Shown: positions 20,833 through 27,731 of the stretch, one piece after another
Layout of the letters: each line of letters begins with the position of its first letter
Numbering within the stretch: the stretch's first letter is position 1
Assembly: GCA_041650175.1 (NCBI GenBank)
Contig: JBAZLS010000003.1
Coordinates: 39,917 to 71,916 of the forward strand
Origin: Minisyncoccota bacterium
GTDB taxonomy: Bacteria > Patescibacteriota > Minisyncoccia > Minisyncoccales > Minisyncoccaceae
Direction: 5' to 3'
DNA length: 32,000 nt
Made by a program: the position numbers and the translations under genes
The notes under the pieces: model-generated
Database searches by the model: none
What the model was told of the DNA's origin: nothing
What the model saw: the letters and a program-made list of their open reading frames with translations, nothing else

Positions 20833-20836
20833 ATTT

Positions 20837-20864
20837 ATAAAAAACTAGAAGTTTTAACTTCTAG
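20837..20864 (-). terminator. Hairpin + U-run closing the tRNA-Pro/module unit, 5 nt upstream of the yraN start
   Basis: Stem CTAGAAGT / ACTTCTAG (20845-20852 / 20857-20864). The plus-strand A6 at 20839-20844 gives U6 on the minus-strand transcript. Confidence 0.55.
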
Positions 20865-20904
20865 CTCTTCTGGCTTTTAAATTTTACGATCAAGCGTTCG
20901 ATTT

Positions 20905-21057
20905 TTACCCCGATGTTGGGAGTCCATTATCTAATTCCTACTGGAATTATCTAAAGCCTGGCTGCGGCACCAGTCGTGCCTTGCCTTCGACTCCCCCACA
21001 ATACTTCCCTACATTATCCCACTATAACGTTGGAATTTTAGCTTAGTTTAGTTTCTG
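20905..21057 (-). other. tRNA-Pro-linked structured module (diverged copy of the tRNA 3' end, conserved core, inverted T-arm copy)
   Basis: CCCGATGTTGGGAGTCC (20908-20925) resembles the tRNA-Pro 3' end CGGGATGCTGGGAGTCG. Hairpin at 20933-20948 (loop TACT), AAGCCTG at 20954-20960, hairpin GGCAC-CAGTC-GTGCC at 20966-20980, CCTTCGACTCCCCCA at 20984-20998 (inverted T-arm). Confidence 0.6.
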
Positions 21058-21128
21058 TCGGGATGCTGGGAGTCGAACCCAGATTACGGACTCCCGAAGC
21101 CCGCATAATGCCTTTATATGACATCCCG
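21058..21128 (-). tRNA. tRNA-Pro (anticodon CGG)
   Basis: 71 nt. Acceptor CGGGATG/CATCCCG, anticodon stem CGGGC/GTCCG with loop UUCGGGA, T-arm CTGGG-TTCGACT-CCCAG. The D-stem is A/T-only and weak. CCA not encoded. Confidence 0.8.
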
Positions 21129-21205
21129 TAAGCGGGATAATTCTTAGAGTAATTAATTTTAGTATCTAAATCCGGCAATTAGCCGGATTATAGACTGAAG
21201 ACGAG

Positions 21206-21230
21206 GAACATTAAGCCCGAATGTTTTTTA
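21206..21230 (+). terminator. Orphan terminator-like hairpin + T-run with no upstream plus-strand gene
   Basis: Stem AACATT / AATGTT (21207-21212 / 21220-21225), loop AAGCCCG, then TTTT. Preceded by hairpin AATCCGGC-AATTA-GCCGGATT (21169-21189). Confidence 0.35.
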
Positions 21231-21319
21231 CACATTAATAATAGGATGATTTAATAAAAAAAGCAAGAGTTTTCATTTTATTAAATACGAAAAATAATAA
21301 AAAAAAGAATTAAAATTTT

Positions 21320-21425
21320 TTCTGGCCAAAACTCTCACCATTCTGGCCAAATTATCCCCAACTTTGTCCCCATTCTGGCCAAAACTCTCACCATTCTGGC
21401 CAAATTATCCCCAGTTTTATCCACA
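21320..21425 (+). repeat. 53-bp tandem duplication (2 units), each with two TTCTGGCCAAA boxes and a DnaA-box-like 9-mer
   Basis: ttctggccaaaactctcaccattctggccaaattatcccca occurs at 21320 and again at 21373. The unit tails differ (actttgtccccat versus gttttatccacat). Confidence 0.85.
21417..21425 (+). promoter_or_regulatory. Exact DnaA-box consensus TTATCCACA, with TTATCCCCA variants at 21352-21360 and 21405-21413
   Basis: Direct match to the canonical 9-mer. The two neighbours differ at one position. Confidence 0.4.
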
Positions 21426-21627
21426 TTTTGGCCAGCAAAATACATTTTTTGTTGTAAATACAAGGAGGTTCTTTTTAGCCAAAAGTCATTTTTATTTGGC
21501 CAAATCCACAAAAAACGTAAAAATAAAACCTATTTTAAATAAAAGGTTCTTTAATTTTTCTTTAATTTTGGCCAGAATAATTTTTTCTGGCCAAATAGTA
21601 TTTTATAATTAAACGATACTTAATCAG

Positions 21628-21698
21628 TGGACCTGACGAAAATCGAATTCGTGTTTCTGCTATGCGAAAGCAGTGTATTTCCACTATACTACAGGCCC
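21628..21698 (-). tRNA. tRNA-Ala (anticodon CGC)
   Basis: 71 nt. Acceptor GGGCCTG/CAGGTCC with the G3:U70 alanine identity pair, anticodon stem CTGCT/AGCAG with loop UUCGCAU, T-arm ACGAA-TTCGATT-TTCGT. Confidence 0.9.
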
Positions 21699-21786
21699 GC
21701 AGTATTTTTTATAAGTTTATTATAAATAAATTTTTTTAAAAAAACAATAAAATTAAAAACAATAATAGTTTTTTATTTATTTAATT

Positions 21787-21867
21787 TGGCCAGAAAGAAA
21801 TTATTCTGGCCAAAGTTATTTTTGGCCAGAATCGGTTCTGGCCAAAATATGTTAAAAATCTTGGCCA
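21787..21867. repeat. Second array of TGGCCA-core motifs (5 copies)
   Basis: TGGCCA at 21787, 21807, 21823, 21839 and 21862, in alternating orientation. Confidence 0.85.
21822..21846. repeat. 25-bp palindromic element TTGGCCAGAA-TCGG-TTCTGGCCAA(A), copy 1
   Basis: Perfect 10-bp inverted arms with a 4-bp spacer; identical 25-mer at 22817-22841. Confidence 0.85.
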
Positions 21868-22099
21868 GAACTGGAAAATAAACAAATATTTTTGTCAAAT
21901 TAGCTTTAAAAGATTTTTTAAAACAATATTCACACTTTTTAACGTATTTATGCGGAAAGTGAACCCTCAAAACAAGGTATTTCTAAAAAAAAGAAAAAAT
22001 ATCCTATAAAATATCTGACAAAGTAATAAAACTGAAAAAATGTAAAAAATTAGAATATCAAAAATTTGCGAAATTTTTTAAAAGAAGGCTTTTTTAAAA

Positions 22100-22115
22100 C
22101 GTTTCACGTGAAACG
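22100..22115. promoter_or_regulatory. parS-like site CGTTTCACGTGAAACG (perfect 16-bp palindrome)
   Basis: 14/16 match to the ParB-binding consensus TGTTNCACGTGAAACA; only the outermost positions differ. Confidence 0.75.
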
Positions 22116-22282
22116 ATTATTTTTTAGATAAAAATAATTAGAATAATTAAATCATAATTTAAAAAATTTAACGTATTTATGGGAAAAGTAACCTCTTAAA
22201 ACACTTAAATTCAACTATATGGCATTTTTTCGTAATTTAATCTTTTAGAATTCCTAGAACATTTTTATGGCCAAATAGAAGC

Positions 22283-22298
22283 CGTTTCACGTGAAACA
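22283..22298. promoter_or_regulatory. parS-like site CGTTTCACGTGAAACA
   Basis: 15/16 match to the parS consensus. Confidence 0.8.
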
Positions 22299-22424
22299 AA
22301 CGATATTTCAATCCATTTTCCGAAATTTTTTAAAAGGTTTTTAGCGTTAAAACAATCCGGCCAAAATCAACGTTTTTTCTGGCCAGAATAATCTAGAAGA
22401 ATTTGCTATTTTGGCCAGATTCTG

Positions 22425-22440
22425 TCCGCCACGTGAAACA
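22425..22440. promoter_or_regulatory. Degenerate parS half-site TCCGCCACGTGAAACA
   Basis: The right half plus the central CACGTG are intact; the left arm has diverged. Confidence 0.4.
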
Positions 22441-22509
22441 GATTTTTAAATTCTAAAAAATTAGAATTAAAAAATTTAATAAAACTAAAAAATATAATTT
22501 AATTAATAG

Positions 22510-22525
22510 TGTTTCACGTGAAACT
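22510..22525. promoter_or_regulatory. parS-like site TGTTTCACGTGAAACT
   Basis: 15/16 match to the parS consensus. Confidence 0.8.
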
Positions 22526-22718
22526 AAGGCATTTTATTAAAAAACCAATTAAATATAACTTGTCTATTAATATTTAATTTATCCTTTATTTATAAGAAAA
22601 AAAGAACATAATTATTACTTCGAAAAAAGAAAATCCTAAAAATATAGCTAATTCGTAAATTTTTAAATTTTTCTTAAAAATTAAAATAAATTTTTAAAAT
22701 TTAATAAAGTTTTAATGA

Positions 22719-22734
22719 TTTTTCACGTGAAACA
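22719..22734. promoter_or_regulatory. parS-like site TTTTTCACGTGAAACA
   Basis: 15/16 match to the parS consensus. Confidence 0.7.
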
Positions 22735-22807
22735 TTTTTAAAAAACGAAAAAAACATCAAAAACAGCTCTTTTTTCGTAGTTGACGAGAGGTCATTCGTG
22801 TTGATTT

Positions 22808-22861
22808 TGGCCGGTATTGGCCAGAATCGGTTCTGGCCAAATCTGGCCAGAATGTTGGCCA
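22808..22861. repeat. Right array of TGGCCA-core motifs (4 exact + 1 TGGCCG variant), includes palindrome copy 2 (22817-22841)
   Basis: ttttggccggtattggccagaatcggttctggccaaatctggccagaatgttggccagaatgc. Confidence 0.85.
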
Positions 22862-23023
22862 GAATGCTAAAAAATAAATAGCAAAAGTGTCAATTATTTG
22901 TATTTTTTTTAAAAATTTTAAAACAAAAAATAAGATTTAATTTCAAATTAAAAAAGAAACTATCTCAAATTTATTAACAATAACAAAAAACACGGATAAT
23001 CCGTGCTTTGTTATTATATTATT

Positions 23024-24535
23024 TTATTGAATCCAATATTTCTTTTTAGTTTTTTTATCTTCTTCCGATTTTATCTCACCAACCTCTTTTTTTGCTTGGA
23101 GTGATAGGTCCTTAATCTCTTTGTCAGATAAGTCTACTAAATCTTCTAACTGTTCAAGTAATACTTTACGAGAATTATTCTTTGGGTTTTTGAGAACGCT
23201 TTCCAATAATATCTCCAATAACCAGCCAATCTTGGGCGATGGTTTAATTTTAAATAAATTCATTATATCAGAGCCATTTATTTGGAGCATTTTGACCGAA
23301 ATAGGGTCTTTCGACACTTTTTCAATCATATACTTTAAATGTCTTAATTTGTAAGGTTCAGCCTTTGGACAGCCAGAGCCAATACGATCCGCCATTCTTA
23401 ATTTTAATAAATCTTCAACGTTTTCAATACCAATATTCTTAATTAATCGCCTAATTGATGCCTCCTTGACTTCATCAATATTGTAATAAAATAGGTGATA
23501 TCTAACCAATAAAGTTATCTTTTCAATATCTTTTTTAGGAAAATGTAACCTTGTAAGAATAATTTTCACCATCTTTGCGCCAACTATTTCATGATTATAA
23601 AAAGTTGCATTTTCTCCTTCTCCATTTTTTGTAGCAGGTTTGCCGATATCGTGCAGTAGGGAAGCCATACGAATAGAAAAATTGAAATTTTTCTTCGTAG
23701 AATAAGTTAAAGCTTCTAAATTATGCTGATAACAATCAAAAATATGATGTTTATTTTGAGCAATTTCATATCCTTGTTCTAGTTCGGGAATAACGTATTT
23801 TAATAATCCATTTTTCCTTAAGGATTCGATTCCGCTAGCTGCTTTATCACTATTTATGGTTTTTATAAGCTCATCTCTTAGCCTTTCTTGAGATATTTTT
23901 TTAAGCAAAACTGCATTCCTTTTAATAGCAGATTTAGTTTTTTCTTCAATTATCCATCCTTCTCCAAGACAGGCTTCAAATCGTATCGCTCGTATCATTC
24001 TAAGGGCATCTTCGGAAAATCTTTCCTCAGGATTACCCACAGATCGGATTATCTTTTCCTTCAAATCTTCTTGACCATTATAAGGATCAATTATGAGATT
24101 TTGCTTATTGCTAGTAGGGAATAATGCAATAGCATTAACAGTAAAGTCCCTTCTTTTTAGGTCATCTTCGATTGTTTTAGACCATTCAACTTTATCGGGA
24201 TGACGATTATTAGAATAGGAAGATTCTGATCTAAATGTTGTTATTTCAATAATTTCATATTCTTCTTGGTCAAATGTTTCACGTGAAATAGGGAAGGCAA
24301 TTCCAACAGTTCCAAAGTCATTTTCATAAAAAGTTTTAATATTTTTTTTGCCAAAAATACTCTGAATTTGCTCAGGAGTAGCATCTGTTGCTATGTCCCA
24401 ATCAGATGGAACTATACCTCTTAAATAATCCCTAACAGAACCTCCGACTATATATGCCTTAAAACCAGTCTCGGTAAGAGTATTAAGGCAAAAGAAGACG
24501 TTATTAGGTATTTTTATTATTCCTTTTGAGTGCAT
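23024..24535 (-). CDS. cca: CCA-adding enzyme / poly(A) polymerase-family tRNA nucleotidyltransferase with an HD domain
   Basis: GFKAYIVGGSVRDYLRG..PSDWDIAT nucleotidyltransferase head, RDFTVNA, LLHDIGKP HD motif. Consistent with three of the four tRNAs lacking an encoded CCA. Confidence 0.85.
   Translation of the reverse strand: MHSKGIIKIPNNVFFCLNTLTETGFKAYIVGGSVRDYLRGIVPSDWDIATDATPEQIQSIFGKKNIKTFYENDFGTVGIAFPISRETFDQEEYEIIEITTFRSESSYSNNRHPDKVEWSKTIEDDLKRRDFTVNAIALFPTSNKQNLIIDPYNGQEDLKEKIIRSVGNPEERFSEDALRMIRAIRFEACLGEGWIIEEKTKSAIKRNAVLLKKISQERLRDELIKTINSDKAASGIESLRKNGLLKYVIPELEQGYEIAQNKHHIFDCYQHNLEALTYSTKKNFNFSIRMASLLHDIGKPATKNGEGENATFYNHEIVGAKMVKIILTRLHFPKKDIEKITLLVRYHLFYYNIDEVKEASIRRLIKNIGIENVEDLLKLRMADRIGSGCPKAEPYKLRHLKYMIEKVSKDPISVKMLQINGSDIMNLFKIKPSPKIGWLLEILLESVLKNPKNNSRKVLLEQLEDLVDLSDKEIKDLSLQAKKEVGEIKSEEDKKTKKKYWIQ
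24275..24290. promoter_or_regulatory. parS-like site TGTTTCACGTGAAATA inside the cca coding sequence
   Basis: 15/16 match to the parS consensus. Intragenic parS sites are common in other bacteria. Confidence 0.6.
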
Positions 24536-24887: not shown

Positions 24888-27731
24888 ATGAGAACTAATT
24901 TTTTTAGAAAAATTTGTTTTGTTCTTTTAGGATTTTTTTGTTTTAGTTTTTCTATTGTTTTTGCTGCTGGACAATGTTCCTCTGGTGAAAATGGATCATA
25001 TCTTGATAATGCGCCTCATGACTTTTGTTCCAGCGGAACAACTTCATCTTTTACAGAACATAACGATGGTAATGTTAATATATACTGGACATGGAAATGC
25101 GGTACGGTTGATTGTACAGCTTATAAAAGAAAGACGGCTACAGCATCAAACCCAGTAATATGCGCTCCAAATCTTCCTGGATGGTGTCTTAATTATATTA
25201 GTGGAGATTCTTTTAACTCTGCAGTTTGGGGTTCTAGTCATTCATTATCCGGAAAAGCTCTTTCTTGGACTTGTAATTATTCAGGACAAACGGTTAATTG
25301 TGCTGCCGATATTGGTAATTGTGGTTCAATTACTTCAACACCCATTACTAGTTCTCCAGATGAAAGCAATGGATGTCAAGTTGGATATACTTTTGGAGGT
25401 TTGAATCAATTAACTTATTCATCAACTCACGAAAATGTTCCTATTGGTTATGGAGCATATGGATCGGATTGGTTATATAGAACTCCTTATACAGTATGGA
25501 CGTGGACTTGTGGTTCCTCACGTTGTTTTGGTTATATTTCTTCTGTTGTTAATGGCGCCTGCGGAACATCCAACGGAGCTAATTCCAGTACTGTTCCTAC
25601 AACCAATCTCTGTAATGAAGGAACAGCCTCTGCAGTCTCGGGAACTGGTCCATGGACTTGGACTTGCAATGGAATCGGCGGAGGAACTAATGCATCTTGT
25701 TCTGCTAATAAAATAACTGATGGCACTTGCGGAACAGCAAATCTAAAAACTTATTTATATGACGCAACCAGCTATGGAACAGATACTCAATGCGCAAATG
25801 GAACGTCAACTAATACCGCTTTCCCAGTAGTCGGAGGATCAGCAACTTGGTATTGTAATGGAAGCAATGGGGGAGCTAATAGTTCACTTTGTACTGCCAG
25901 TCGAAATGCCACTCCAGTTGCTGGTGCTTGCGGAACAGCCAATAACAAGACATATGCTTACAATGCAACAAGTTATGGATCAGATACTCAATGTTCAAGC
26001 GGAACTTCAAGCAACACTGCTTTTCCAGCTCAAGGGTCAATAGTTATTTGGACTTGTAGTGGATCAAATGGAGGCGAAACAAGAAGCTGTGCTGCTGGAC
26101 GTAATCCCGCTCCTATTAATGGTACTTGCGGAACAGCAAATCTAAAAACTTATCCTTACAATGCAACCAGCTACGGAACAGATACTCAATGTGAAGCAGG
26201 AACGTCAACTAATACCGCTTTCCCAGTAGTCGGAGGAATAACTAGTTGGTATTGCAATGGAAGCAATGGGGGAGCTAATAGTTCGCTTTGTGCCGCTAGT
26301 CGAGTCAATACTCCTATTAATGGCATTTGCGGAACAGCAAATCAAAAAGATTATCCCTATAATGCAACAAATTATGGATTAGATACTCAATGCGCAAGTG
26401 GAACTTCAACCGACACTTCTTTCCCAGCAGTCGGAGGAATACTTATCTGGTTTTGCAATGGAATTAATGGTGGAATAAATAGTAGTTCTTGTGCGGCAAG
26501 TCATAACCCTTACGTAAATGAAAACTGTGGTTTATCTAGCGAAGGTAATTTTAATGAAAAACCTATAGCCGATTTATGTAGTAATGGAGCAACAGCTTCA
26601 ACAGTTTCAGGAACTGGTCCATGGACTTGGACTTGCACTGATAATGAAGGAGAAATCTCAAATTGCTCTGCTGACAAGATTGTTAATGGTATTTGTGGAA
26701 CAGCAAATTTAAAACCCTATCCTTATAACGCAACTGGCTATGGAATAGACACTCAATGTGCATCAGGAACGTCAACTAACACTGCTTTCCCAGCAGTTGG
26801 AGGGTTAGCTACTTGGACTTGCAGCGGAAACAATGGAGGAACTAATAGTTTACCCTGTACTGCTAGTCGAGATAATACTCCAATTAATGGTATTTGTGGA
26901 ACAGCAAATTTAAAACCCTATCCTTATAACGCAACTGACTATGGAATAGACACTCAATGTGCATCAGGAACGTCAACTAACACTGCTTTCCCAGCAGTTG
27001 GAACAGCAGTTGGCTGGTATTGTAATGGAAGTAATGGAGGAACTAACAGTTTACTTTGTGCGGCAAGTCATATTGATAATGGCACTTGTGGCTCATCCAA
27101 TGGAAGCAATTTTAATGAAGCCCCTACAATCGGTTTATGTAACAGCGGATCACCTAGTACTGTTACTGGAGATGGTCCATGGACTTGGACCTGTAGTGGC
27201 GTTTATGGAGGAACAACTTCATATTGTAGTGCAAACAAGATAACTAATGGCGTTTGCGGAACAGCTGATGGTAGGGAGTATAGTTACCCTACAACATCTT
27301 ATGGTTTAGACACTCAATGTGCAAGTGGAACGTCAACTAACACCGCTTTTCCAGCACCTGGCTCGTCACAGGCTTGGATATGCAATGGGACTTATGGAGG
27401 AACAGCAAGTTCTTGCACTGCTAGTCACACTGCCGGATCTACTGCTAATGAAATTACTTCCTTCAAATTTAGAACTCCAGATGTTGTTGGGACTATTAAT
27501 GGAAATGATATTACTGTGACTGTTCCTTATGGAACTGCGGTTAATTCTTTAATTGCCATTTTTACTACTACCGGAAAAACAGTTCAAGTTGGAACCATTA
27601 CTCAGTATAGTAACGAAACTGTAAATGACTTTACTAATAAAGTATATTATCTTGTTTATCCAGAAGTTGGATCAATTCGAGTCTATACAGTTACAGTTAA
27701 AAAATCAATAAATCCTACTTGGAGAGAGTAA
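24888..27731 (+). CDS. Secreted or cell-surface Cys-rich repeat protein (947 aa) with a C-terminal beta-sandwich-like domain
   Basis: Signal peptide MRTNFFRKICFVLLGFFCFSFSIVFA. Seven ~66-aa modules (CGTANxKxYxYNATxYGxDTQCxxGTSTNTAFPxxG...WxCxGxNGGxNSxxCxAS) are interleaved with at least three ~55-aa modules (CGxSNGxxFxxxPxxxLCxxGxxSxVxGxGPWTWTC..GGxxxxCSANK). Strong terminator downstream. Confidence 0.8.
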   Translation: MRTNFFRKICFVLLGFFCFSFSIVFAAGQCSSGENGSYLDNAPHDFCSSGTTSSFTEHNDGNVNIYWTWKCGTVDCTAYKRKTATASNPVICAPNLPGWCLNYISGDSFNSAVWGSSHSLSGKALSWTCNYSGQTVNCAADIGNCGSITSTPITSSPDESNGCQVGYTFGGLNQLTYSSTHENVPIGYGAYGSDWLYRTPYTVWTWTCGSSRCFGYISSVVNGACGTSNGANSSTVPTTNLCNEGTASAVSGTGPWTWTCNGIGGGTNASCSANKITDGTCGTANLKTYLYDATSYGTDTQCANGTSTNTAFPVVGGSATWYCNGSNGGANSSLCTASRNATPVAGACGTANNKTYAYNATSYGSDTQCSSGTSSNTAFPAQGSIVIWTCSGSNGGETRSCAAGRNPAPINGTCGTANLKTYPYNATSYGTDTQCEAGTSTNTAFPVVGGITSWYCNGSNGGANSSLCAASRVNTPINGICGTANQKDYPYNATNYGLDTQCASGTSTDTSFPAVGGILIWFCNGINGGINSSSCAASHNPYVNENCGLSSEGNFNEKPIADLCSNGATASTVSGTGPWTWTCTDNEGEISNCSADKIVNGICGTANLKPYPYNATGYGIDTQCASGTSTNTAFPAVGGLATWTCSGNNGGTNSLPCTASRDNTPINGICGTANLKPYPYNATDYGIDTQCASGTSTNTAFPAVGTAVGWYCNGSNGGTNSLLCAASHIDNGTCGSSNGSNFNEAPTIGLCNSGSPSTVTGDGPWTWTCSGVYGGTTSYCSANKITNGVCGTADGREYSYPTTSYGLDTQCASGTSTNTAFPAPGSSQAWICNGTYGGTASSCTASHTAGSTANEITSFKFRTPDVVGTINGNDITVTVPYGTAVNSLIAIFTTTGKTVQVGTITQYSNETVNDFTNKVYYLVYPEVGSIRVYTVTVKKSINPTWRE
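25550..27440 (+). repeat. Intragenic array of ~165- and ~201-bp coding repeats
   Basis: For example, 26684-26801 versus 26885-27002 match at 117/118 positions (offset 201 bp). 25720-25835 versus 26121-26236 are highly similar (offset ~402 bp). Confidence 0.9.

What the first reader, a model, noticed from the sequence alone, without database searches (positions are those of the whole stretch)
22100..22734. Cluster of five parS-type palindromes within 635 bp of non-coding DNA, plus one inside cca
The sites are CGTTTCACGTGAAACG (22100), CGTTTCACGTGAAACA (22283), TCCGCCACGTGAAACA (22425, half-degenerate), TGTTTCACGTGAAACT (22510) and TTTTTCACGTGAAACA (22719). A sixth, TGTTTCACGTGAAATA, lies at 24275 inside cca. 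Spacings are 183, 142, 85 and 209 bp. The four strong intergenic sites match the widely conserved ParB/Spo0J binding consensus TGTTNCACGTGAAACA at 14-15 of 16 positions. In model bacteria, chromosomal parS sites are usually scattered over many kb and often lie inside genes. A tight intergenic array looks more like a dedicated centromere, in the style of a plasmid or phage partition site or a compact ParB nucleation platform.
Basis: partly seen in the sequence, partly recalled or inferred. Interest (0 to 1): 0.65.

Follow-up and report, generated by a model that had tools for sequence, protein, structure and literature searches.

The report
Conserved chromosomal parS centromere cluster
This is an ordinary-type bacterial chromosome "centromere", a small cluster of canonical ParB-binding parS sites, found in an uncultivated Patescibacteria (Minisyncoccales) genome; its sequence is textbook, but it sits in a conserved non-coding module next to the cca gene that has not been described.

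Summary
Four near-perfect parS 16-mers lie at 22100, 22283, 22510 and 22719. A fifth, hybrid site lies at 22423-22440 and a sixth sits inside cca at 24275. A search gave 5 hits against 0.14 expected, and 6 of the 7 CACGTG in the window belong to these sites.

The window is a chromosome segment of a Minisyncoccales (Paceibacterota/CPR) bacterium, not a plasmid or phage.

In 29 of 30 related genomes with cca at least 61% identical and enough downstream sequence, canonical parS sites lie within 1.5 kb after the cca stop (27 have two or more). Apart from one site inside cca of L001, none occurs elsewhere in their roughly 20-kb loci. In a three-species alignment, 68 of 70 parS core columns are invariant, against 36% of background columns.

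The sites are interleaved with tRNA genes and with arrays of DnaA-box-like repeats (TTCTGGCCAA here). Two relatives amplified the sites into tandem arrays: 36 copies in Minisyncoccus archaeiphilus and 15 in another MAG.

Best reading: a compact ParB loading platform, possibly beside or within oriC.

I could not locate a ParB gene. None lies in the window or within -10 to +27 kb of the module in relatives.

Site number and sequence are ordinary. I rate it a new member of a known kind, of moderate interest.

The parts
22100..22115 (.). parS site 1, CGTTTCACGTGAAACG (14/16 to TGTTTCACGTGAAACA; the 14-nt core is perfect)
   Evidence: The core is invariant in the window/L001/L153 alignment.
22283..22298 (.). 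parS site 2, CGTTTCACGTGAAACA (15/16)
   Evidence: Invariant block 22284-22298.
22423..22440 (+). Hybrid site TGTCCGCCACGTGAAACA: the right half is a parS half-site and the left half resembles the TGTCC-type boxes
   Evidence: The 18-nt block is invariant in all three species, so it is kept in exactly this asymmetric form.
22510..22525 (.). parS site 3, TGTTTCACGTGAAACT (15/16)
   Evidence: Invariant block 22510-22524.
22719..22734 (.). parS site 4, TTTTTCACGTGAAACA (15/16)
   Evidence: The aligned sites are perfect in L001 and carry one change (GTGGAAC) in L153.
24275..24290 (.). parS site 5, TGTTTCACGTGAAATA (15/16), inside cca in a variable loop of the protein
   Evidence: The same codon position in L001 reads TGTTCCACGTGAAACA although the peptide differs (ISRET vs VPRET). 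L153 also has a strict site inside cca. 29 other orthologues have 8-14 mismatches there.
21320..21437 (+). Phased array of boxes: TTCTGGCCAA x4 (plus one inverted copy), interleaved with the DnaA-box-like TTATCCCCA x2, TTGTCCCCA and TTATCCACA (21352-21425), at 9-21 bp spacing
   Evidence: (family D1). The homologous array next to tRNA-Pro in relatives holds TGTCCAGAA or TGTCCACA boxes.
21568..21870 (.). Two groups of TTCTGGCCAA boxes flanking tRNA-Ala, as inverted pairs with 4-8 bp spacers (21568-21594 and 21786-21870)
   Evidence: Invariant blocks 21784-21796, 21802-21814 and 21836-21846.
22353..22420 (.). TTCTGGCCA(A/G) box group lying between parS site 2 and the hybrid site
   Evidence: Invariant block 22377-22388, TTCTGGCCAGAA.
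22805..22864 (.). TTCTGGCCAA box group between parS site 4 and the end of cca
   Evidence: Conserved in L001 and L153.
21627..21698 (-). tRNA-Ala(CGC), part of the conserved module
   Evidence: tRNA-Ala follows the first parS doublet in most relatives.
21057..21128 (-). tRNA-Pro(CGG), the far border of the conserved module
23024..24535 (-). cca (CCA-adding tRNA nucleotidyltransferase), the syntenic anchor of the module; its intrinsic terminator is at 22987-23009
   Evidence: Pfam, terminator scan, synteny.

Best explanation
The sites are the chromosomal parS centromere of a Minisyncoccales (Patescibacteria) bacterium. Shown: five to six copies of the universal ParB/Spo0J recognition palindrome are packed into about 640 bp of untranscribed-looking, AT-rich DNA just past the cca terminator, with one more copy inside cca. 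This cluster is an ancient, selected feature of the lineage. Inferred: CTP-bound ParB dimers load at each site, slide out over the neighbouring few kb and build a single partition complex. That complex would cover the tRNA genes, the box arrays and cca. It would be used for origin-region segregation (with ParA if the genome has one) and probably for SMC loading. Several closely spaced sites would raise the loading rate and so give a dense complex from a small locus. The parS sites are interleaved with phased arrays of a second repeat. That repeat is TTCTGGCCAA here, TGTCCAGAA in most relatives and the DnaA-box-like TGTCCACA in some. It occurs alongside standard-looking DnaA boxes. I read these arrays as DnaA-binding sites, at about 40-50% confidence. 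If so, the centromere sits beside or within oriC or a DnaA-box cluster.
For: Sequence identity to the consensus and excess over chance. Chromosomal setting: PNPase, S15, NusA, trigger factor, ClpP, FakA/DegV and PlsY flank the region. Taxonomy comes from cca relatives, with the best at 79% identity among Paceibacterota and Minisyncoccales MAGs. Conservation: a strict parS (NGTTNCACGTGNAACN) lies within 1.5 kb after the cca stop in 29 of 30 relatives with cca >=61% identical and enough downstream sequence. None lies elsewhere in their loci apart from the L001 in-cca site. Across 34 genomes and 587 kb I counted 157 strict sites, 126 of them perfect. The two positions left free in the search are T (91%) and A (91%), as in the ParB consensus. 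Footprinting: 68 of 70 parS core columns are invariant among the window, L001 and L153, against 36% of non-motif columns. Concerted symmetric variant: all sites in L006, and those in L026 and L059, read TGTTCCACGTGGAACA. That pattern is expected for one dimeric trans-acting reader. The in-cca site is kept at the DNA level while the encoded peptide changes. Origin proximity: the M. archaeiphilus record starts at dnaA (supplement of PMC12281837) and its cca/parS locus is at 1.49 of 1.537 Mb, about 3% of the chromosome away. Box arrays and DnaA-like boxes.
Against: No ParB, ParA or DnaA gene was found in the window (Pfam; tblastn, with a Spo0J probe verified as 100% authentic). None was found in the -10 to +27 kb around the module in relatives. 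So the cognate reader is inferred, not shown. Three protein-database searches did not reach a Patescibacteria ParB, and the searchable literature says nothing on ParB or parS in this phylum. The oriC part is weak for four reasons. The compact modules of L005 and L014 have no obvious AT-rich unwinding stretch. The GC-skew minimum and strand switch near 24.5 kb are confounded with gene orientation. A second strand switch lies only 19 kb away and is also conserved. TTCTGGCCAA matches TTATCCACA at only 5-6 of 9 positions.
Confidence: 0.8

Rival explanations
1. The palindromes are read by a protein other than canonical ParB. Candidates are a ParB-family paralogue (Noc-like or a transcription-regulating ParB-like protein) or an unrelated CACGTG-binding regulator. 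Their role would be to control the neighbouring tRNA genes or replication initiation rather than segregation.
For: No ParB gene could be shown. In compact relatives the sites bracket each tRNA gene and the box array. The hybrid site 22423-22440 is conserved in an asymmetric form that a symmetric ParB dimer would not obviously need.
Against: The match covers all 16 positions of the ParB consensus, including the outer T and A, not just CACGTG. 126 of 157 sites are perfect. The known Noc site ATTTCCCGGGAAAT is different (own knowledge). A regulator of three tRNA genes would not explain 15-36 copy arrays.
Confidence: 0.1
2. The cluster is the partition site of an integrated plasmid, phage-plasmid or other mobile element that landed next to tRNA genes.
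For: tRNA genes are common integration targets. Closely spaced canonical parS doublets are frequent on IMG/VR viral contigs (at least 120 contigs). L006 carries an extra inserted ORF in the module.
Against: The same module sits at the same place, between cca and tRNA-Pro/plsY, in about 30 genomes whose cca proteins are only 61-79% identical. No integrase, rep, parA or parB gene lies nearby. The window shows no similarity to the viral loci.
Confidence: 0.03
3. The palindromes are chance or compositional products of AT-rich spacer DNA, or RNA hairpins or terminators, with no DNA-binding role.
For: The terminator scan flags 22100-22115 as a weak hairpin followed by a T-run.
Against: 5 hits against 0.14 expected. 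Near-total invariance in an otherwise 36%-invariant spacer. Most sites are not followed by T-runs. A 6-bp A/U-rich stem is a poor terminator, and the sites occur on both sides of tRNA genes.
Confidence: 0.02

Closest known systems
Chromosomal parS of the ParB/Spo0J system (B. subtilis type, consensus TGTTNCACGTGAAACA; Lin & Grossman 1998 and Livny et al. 2007, as cited in PMC10786196)
   Same: Same 16-bp palindrome. Same order of site number: the review says most species have 1-4 sites and some have 20 or more. Probably origin-proximal as well.
   Different: Here all intergenic sites sit within 635 bp of one non-coding spacer anchored to cca and tRNA genes. They are not near parAB. In B. subtilis the sites are spread over hundreds of kb and are mostly inside genes (own knowledge).
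Clustered origin-proximal parS of Caulobacter, Myxococcus, Corynebacterium and Streptomyces (Jakimowicz 2002, Tran 2018 and Jung 2019, cited in PMC10786196)
   Same: Several adjacent sites that nucleate one partition complex.
   Different: Those clusters span about 5-200 kb and lie beside parAB (own knowledge). This one is sub-kb to 3.3 kb, is interleaved with tRNA genes and DnaA-box-like arrays, and has no parAB within at least 10-27 kb.
F-plasmid sopC, 12 tandem 43-bp units each with a SopB-binding inverted repeat (own knowledge)
   Same: The relatives M. archaeiphilus (36 sites in 185-bp units) and L019 (15 sites at a 56-bp period) have the same head-to-tail iterated architecture.
   Different: The recognition sequence and protein differ, and sopC is on a plasmid. 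The window itself is not tandemly iterated.
Origins and DnaA-box clusters that carry parS, such as V. cholerae chromosome 2 parS2-B within ori2 and B. subtilis origin-proximal DnaA-box clusters (own knowledge)
   Same: ParB sites are juxtaposed with arrays of initiator-type boxes.
   Different: Here the initiator-type boxes have drifted (TGTCCACA, then TGTCCAGAA, then TGGCCAGAA). Their reader and any origin function are unproven.

Membership tests
Chromosomal ParB/Spo0J-type parS | 16-bp inverted repeat matching TGTTNCACGTGAAACA | tested here: met
   14-15 of 16 matches at five sites, and the 14-nt core is perfect at three. Relatives mostly carry perfect 16-mers.
Chromosomal ParB/Spo0J-type parS | Rare in the genome, not a dispersed motif | tested here: met
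   All sites in the 32-kb window fall in 22.1-24.3 kb. There are no strict sites outside the module in 587 kb of related loci, except the in-cca sites. The whole genome is not available.
Chromosomal ParB/Spo0J-type parS | Kept by selection at the orthologous locus in related genomes | tested here: met
   29 of 30 relatives have it. 68 of 70 core columns are invariant against a 36% background.
Chromosomal ParB/Spo0J-type parS | Origin-proximal position | tested here: inconclusive
   In M. archaeiphilus the locus is about 45 kb (3%) from dnaA, which is at the record start. The window's GC-skew minimum and strand switch at ~24.5 kb are confounded with gene orientation. No dnaA or dnaN lies within reach.
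Chromosomal ParB/Spo0J-type parS | Cognate ParB (ParB_N + HTH_ParB) encoded in the same genome | not testable with these tools
   Absent from the window and from -10 to +27 kb in relatives. The rest of the genome could not be fetched, and the database searches returned only Firmicutes-type ParBs.
Chromosomal ParB/Spo0J-type parS | Specific ParB binding and CTP-dependent loading and spreading | not testable with these tools
   Needs an experiment.
Plasmid/phage partition site (sopC-, P1 parS-, N15-type) | Lies on a mobile replicon or integrated element | tested here: not met
   Housekeeping flanks and conserved synteny. No similarity to the viral loci.
Plasmid/phage partition site (sopC-, P1 parS-, N15-type) | Adjacent parA-parB operon | tested here: not met
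   No Soj or Spo0J hit by tblastn in the window or in 80 related loci.
Plasmid/phage partition site (sopC-, P1 parS-, N15-type) | Regular tandem iteration of one unit | tested here: not met
   The window has spacings of 183/142/85/209 bp and its flanks are only AT-rich look-alikes. The feature is met in the relatives L017 and L019.
Bacterial oriC | Cluster of DnaA boxes (TTATCCACA-like) | tested here: inconclusive
   TTATCCCCA x2, TTGTCCCCA and TTATCCACA lie within 74 bp at 21352-21425. The window-wide count of boxes is not above chance (13 vs 8.8). The homologous arrays in relatives hold TGTCCACA or TGTCCAGAA boxes in 9-12 bp phase.
Bacterial oriC | AT-rich unwinding element next to the boxes | tested here: inconclusive
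   The window has 23-25% GC over 21.5-23.0 kb. The compact modules of L005 and L014 have no such stretch.
Bacterial oriC | Next to dnaA/dnaN | tested here: not met
   No DnaA hit in the window or in any related locus.
Restriction-modification or transcription-factor motif built on CACGTG | Core hexamer dispersed with varied flanks | tested here: not met
   6 of 7 CACGTG carry full parS arms.

The most novel reading that the evidence does not exclude
The cca-tRNA spacer of Minisyncoccales may be a composite 'regional centromere-origin'. In it, canonical parS sites co-evolve and co-amplify with a second, fast-drifting box (TGTCCACA, then TGTCCAGAA, then TGGCCAGAA). That box would be read either by a DnaA with shifted specificity or by a lineage-specific partner protein. 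The hybrid site TGTCCGCCACGTGAAACA and the M. archaeiphilus units (one parS plus two or three boxes, in an array of 36 parS sites) would then mark physical coupling of the two readers. This arrangement is not described for any chromosome.
Probability: 0.2. Interest if true: 0.6.

Novelty: new member of a known kind. Interest (0 to 1): 0.35.

Why it matters
Chromosome segregation and replication origins are essentially unstudied in Patescibacteria/CPR. Full-text searches found no paper on ParB or parS in the phylum. This locus gives a concrete, conserved landmark: parS sites next to cca, with adjacent DnaA-box-like arrays. It can be used to orient and rotate CPR genome assemblies and to look for the origin. 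It can also be used to test ParB loading in the one cultivated relative, M. archaeiphilus, whose 36-copy parS array is an unusually dense chromosomal centromere. For the window itself the biology is the expected one.

Tried and rejected
1. Exact-protein look-ups of the window's Cca and trigger factor: not on record, so the source contig could not be extended.

2. tblastn with Spo0J, Soj and DnaA probes against the window, 80 cca-anchored loci, 120 metagenome loci and 120 viral loci. There were no hits in the lineage and one Spo0J-like hit among the viral loci.

3. Protein database searches for ParB. B. subtilis Spo0J returned only Bacillus. A consensus ParB returned Firmicutes-type proteins. 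P0311 shared a contig length with a ComM hit, but it proved to be from an unrelated MAG with gidB-parA-parB.

4. Walking from ComM orthologues. Synteny is conserved out to about 27 kb from the module. Only large unannotated proteins lie beyond, and there is no parAB or dnaA.

5. Supplementary gene tables of the M. archaeiphilus papers are truncated in the library. They confirmed only that the record starts at dnaA.

6. A metagenome scan for TTCTGGCCAA pairs was swamped by a dispersed repeat of an unrelated ~48% GC organism. Only L153 is related to the window.

7. Rfam found nothing in the spacer except the two tRNAs.

8. Considered and rejected: an R-M or transcription-factor CACGTG motif, terminator hairpins, an integrated mobile element (synteny), and recent tandem duplication in the window.

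9. GC skew as proof of an origin was rejected as confounded with gene strand.

Full report
**1. Observation**

A search for TGTTTCACGTGAAACA with up to three mismatches finds five sites, at 22100, 22283, 22510, 22719 and 24275. The expectation is 0.14, and none of 100 dinucleotide-preserving shuffles reached five. The 14-nt core search returns the same five sites, three of them perfect. Six of the seven CACGTG hexamers in the 32-kb window lie inside these sites or the half site at 22425-22440. This excludes a dispersed CACGTG-based motif.

The stretch 20833-23023 has no credible ORF. It holds tRNA-Pro and tRNA-Ala on the minus strand. The gene with the sixth site is a CCA-adding enzyme, and an intrinsic terminator follows its stop codon at 23009-22987.

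**2. What the window is**

Pfam annotation gives a cellular chromosome. The genes include:
- PNPase, S15, ComM, KsgA, FakA, three DegV and several PlsY;
- a CarS-like protein, YraN, Cca, NusA, trigger factor and ClpP;
- T4SS-pilin-like proteins and a 947-aa Cys-repeat surface protein.

Cca relatives are all Paceibacterota/Minisyncoccales MAGs. The best has 79% identity, and the cultivated Minisyncoccus archaeiphilus PMX.108 is among them. No parA, parB, dnaA or dnaN is in the window. This holds by Pfam and by tblastn. The Spo0J probe was later confirmed to be 100% identical to the B. subtilis protein.

**3. Conservation**

This is the main result. With the strict pattern NGTTNCACGTGNAACN, 29 of 30 relatives have sites within 1.5 kb after the cca stop. 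These are the relatives whose Cca is at least 61% identical and which have enough downstream sequence. Twenty-seven of them have two or more sites. There are none elsewhere in their ~20-kb loci apart from one in-cca site in L001. Relatives with Cca at or below 57% identity have none after cca, although some carry variant clusters nearby.

Over 34 genomes and 587 kb I counted 157 strict sites, of which 126 are the perfect 16-mer. The two outer positions that the pattern leaves free are T and A in 91% of sites, as in the ParB consensus.

The spacer from the window, L001 and the metagenome contig L153 can be aligned. In that alignment 68 of 70 parS core columns are invariant, against 36% of non-motif columns.

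In L006, L026 and L059 all sites carry the same symmetric variant, TGTTCCACGTGGAACA. That concerted change is what one dimeric trans-acting reader would produce.

The in-cca site lies in a poorly conserved loop of Cca. It is shared with L001 (TGTTCCACGTGAAACA) although the peptide differs, and L153 also has a strict in-cca site. In 29 other orthologues the position has 8-14 mismatches. It therefore looks like a real, recently gained site of this sub-lineage.

**4. Anatomy of the module**

In compact relatives (L005, L014) the whole module is about 500 bp. Its order is:
- cca stop, then 7 nt;
- parS, N11, parS;
- tRNA-Ala;
- parS;
- tRNA-Val;
- seven or eight head-to-tail boxes TGTCCAGAA, plus one TGTCCACA and one TGTCCCCA, at 9-12 bp spacing;
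- parS, sometimes as a doublet;
- tRNA-Pro, then plsY.

L006 has TGTCCACA/TGTCCACT at the same place, which is the TTGTCCACA type of DnaA box. The window and L001 instead have about 20 copies of TTCTGGCCAA, the reverse complement of TTGGCCAGAA, in both orientations. A search allowing one mismatch gives 25 hits in the window against 2.7 expected. The copies fall into groups that alternate with the parS sites.

A phased array lies at 21320-21437. There the boxes interleave with TTATCCCCA x2, TTGTCCCCA and TTATCCACA. These boxes are also conserved islands: 65 of 80 columns are invariant.

It fuses a box-like left half to a parS half-site.

In M. archaeiphilus, 36 perfect parS sites lie in 185-bp (75 + 110) tandem units, and each parS-bearing subunit also carries two or three TCTGGACA-type boxes. 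A cluster with four TTGTCCACA boxes and then tRNA-Pro follow the array. L019 has 15 sites at a 56-bp period.

**5. Mechanism**

Shown: canonical parS sequence, clustering, selection, chromosomal context and the absence of adjacent parAB.

Inferred from the established ParABS mechanism (review PMC10786196): CTP-bound ParB loads at each site and spreads over the neighbouring DNA. This forms a single partition complex used for segregation and SMC loading. Dense sites would give a high loading rate from a very small locus.

The neighbouring box arrays look like DnaA-oligomerisation arrays. They have the same orientation, roughly helical phasing, and a mixture with bona fide DnaA-box sequences. The M. 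archaeiphilus locus is about 3% of the chromosome from dnaA. So the centromere may sit at or beside oriC or a DnaA-box cluster.

I hold this part at 40-50% only, for four reasons:
- Compact modules lack an obvious unwinding element.
- TTCTGGCCAA is far from TTATCCACA.
- The GC-skew minimum near 24.5 kb coincides with a gene-strand switch.
- A second conserved strand switch lies 19 kb away.

**6. The missing piece**

I could not show a ParB gene for this lineage. It is not in the window. It is not within 10 kb on either side of cca in 80 relatives. It is not in the further ~17 kb reached through ComM orthologues. Database searches with Spo0J and with a consensus ParB returned Firmicutes-type proteins only, and one false lead was checked and dropped. 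The gene tables of the M. archaeiphilus papers are truncated in the library. The perfect, genome-wide-coherent conservation of the full 16-mer nonetheless makes a canonical ParB by far the most likely reader.

**7. Comparison and novelty**

The sequence and the number of sites are ordinary. A review states that most species have one to four sites and some have 20 or more.

Three things are less usual:
- the sub-kb packing in one spacer anchored to cca and tRNA genes, far from parAB;
- the interleaving with drifting DnaA-box-like arrays;
- the amplification into sopC-like tandem arrays in two relatives.

I found no description of any of this for Patescibacteria. I file the window's feature as a new member of a known kind, the chromosomal ParB-type parS cluster. 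It is not a plasmid- or phage-type centromere, because those membership tests fail.

**8. Verdict**

Confidence in the parS-centromere reading is 0.8. Interest is 0.35.

Noticed in passing
window 21320-22864: About 20 copies of TTCTGGCCAA(A) in both orientations (25 hits with <=1 mismatch in the window vs 2.7 expected). Several form inverted pairs with 4-8 bp spacers. They are conserved in L001 and L153. Relatives carry TGTCCAGAA or the DnaA-box-like TGTCCACA at the homologous place, so the motif drifts between species while the array persists.
   Followed up: partly
window 22423-22440: The 'half-degenerate' site is an 18-nt block, TGTCCGCCACGTGAAACA, that is invariant in three species. It looks like a fusion of a TGTCC-type box and a parS half-site.
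   Followed up: partly
window 20833-21056 (minus strand): A 224-nt segment lies between tRNA-Pro and yraN. It folds far better than shuffles (-65.8 kcal/mol, z = -4.7) and ends in a 14-bp hairpin plus a U-run. It is 78% identical over 92 nt in L001 and has no Rfam match. It is a candidate small RNA.
   Followed up: partly
window 21911-21974 and 22140-22203: A 64-nt repeat (73% identical) contains AACGTATTTATGCGGAAAGTGAACCCTCAAAA. Both copies are kept in L001. Its function is unknown; it could be a promoter or a small RNA.
   Followed up: no
L017 11486-14901 (Minisyncoccus archaeiphilus NZ_AP038758.1, about 1.4907-1.4941 Mb): 36 perfect parS sites lie in 3.3 kb of 99-100% identical 75- and 110-bp subunits, each also carrying TCTGGACA-type boxes. 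This is a very dense chromosomal parS array in a cultivated CPR bacterium.
   Followed up: partly
L019 9750-10456: 15 parS sites lie in a 56-bp-period tandem array directly after cca, followed by a short TGTCCAGAA/TGTCCACA box cluster.
   Followed up: partly
L006 9949-10472; L026; L059 1066-1843: These genomes use the symmetric parS variant TGTTCCACGTGGAACA at all their sites, a concerted change of both half-sites.
   Followed up: partly
L201-L320 (IMG/VR viral contigs): At least 120 viral contigs carry doublets of the perfect chromosomal parS, with 2-5 sites per locus. Only 1 of 120 has a Spo0J-like gene in the fetched flanks. These elements may borrow the host ParB.
   Followed up: partly
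window 24888-27731: A 947-aa secreted protein is built from repeated Cys-containing ~70-aa units. Its GC is 41-43% against a 32% average, and it has no Pfam match. It is inserted between cca and nusA, which are adjacent in relatives such as L017.
   Followed up: no
L081-L200 (Ga03079xx metagenome contigs): TTCTGGCCAA pairs are also part of a dispersed repeat, often at ~90-bp spacing, in an unrelated organism of about 48% GC. The 10-mer alone is therefore not diagnostic of this lineage.
   Followed up: no
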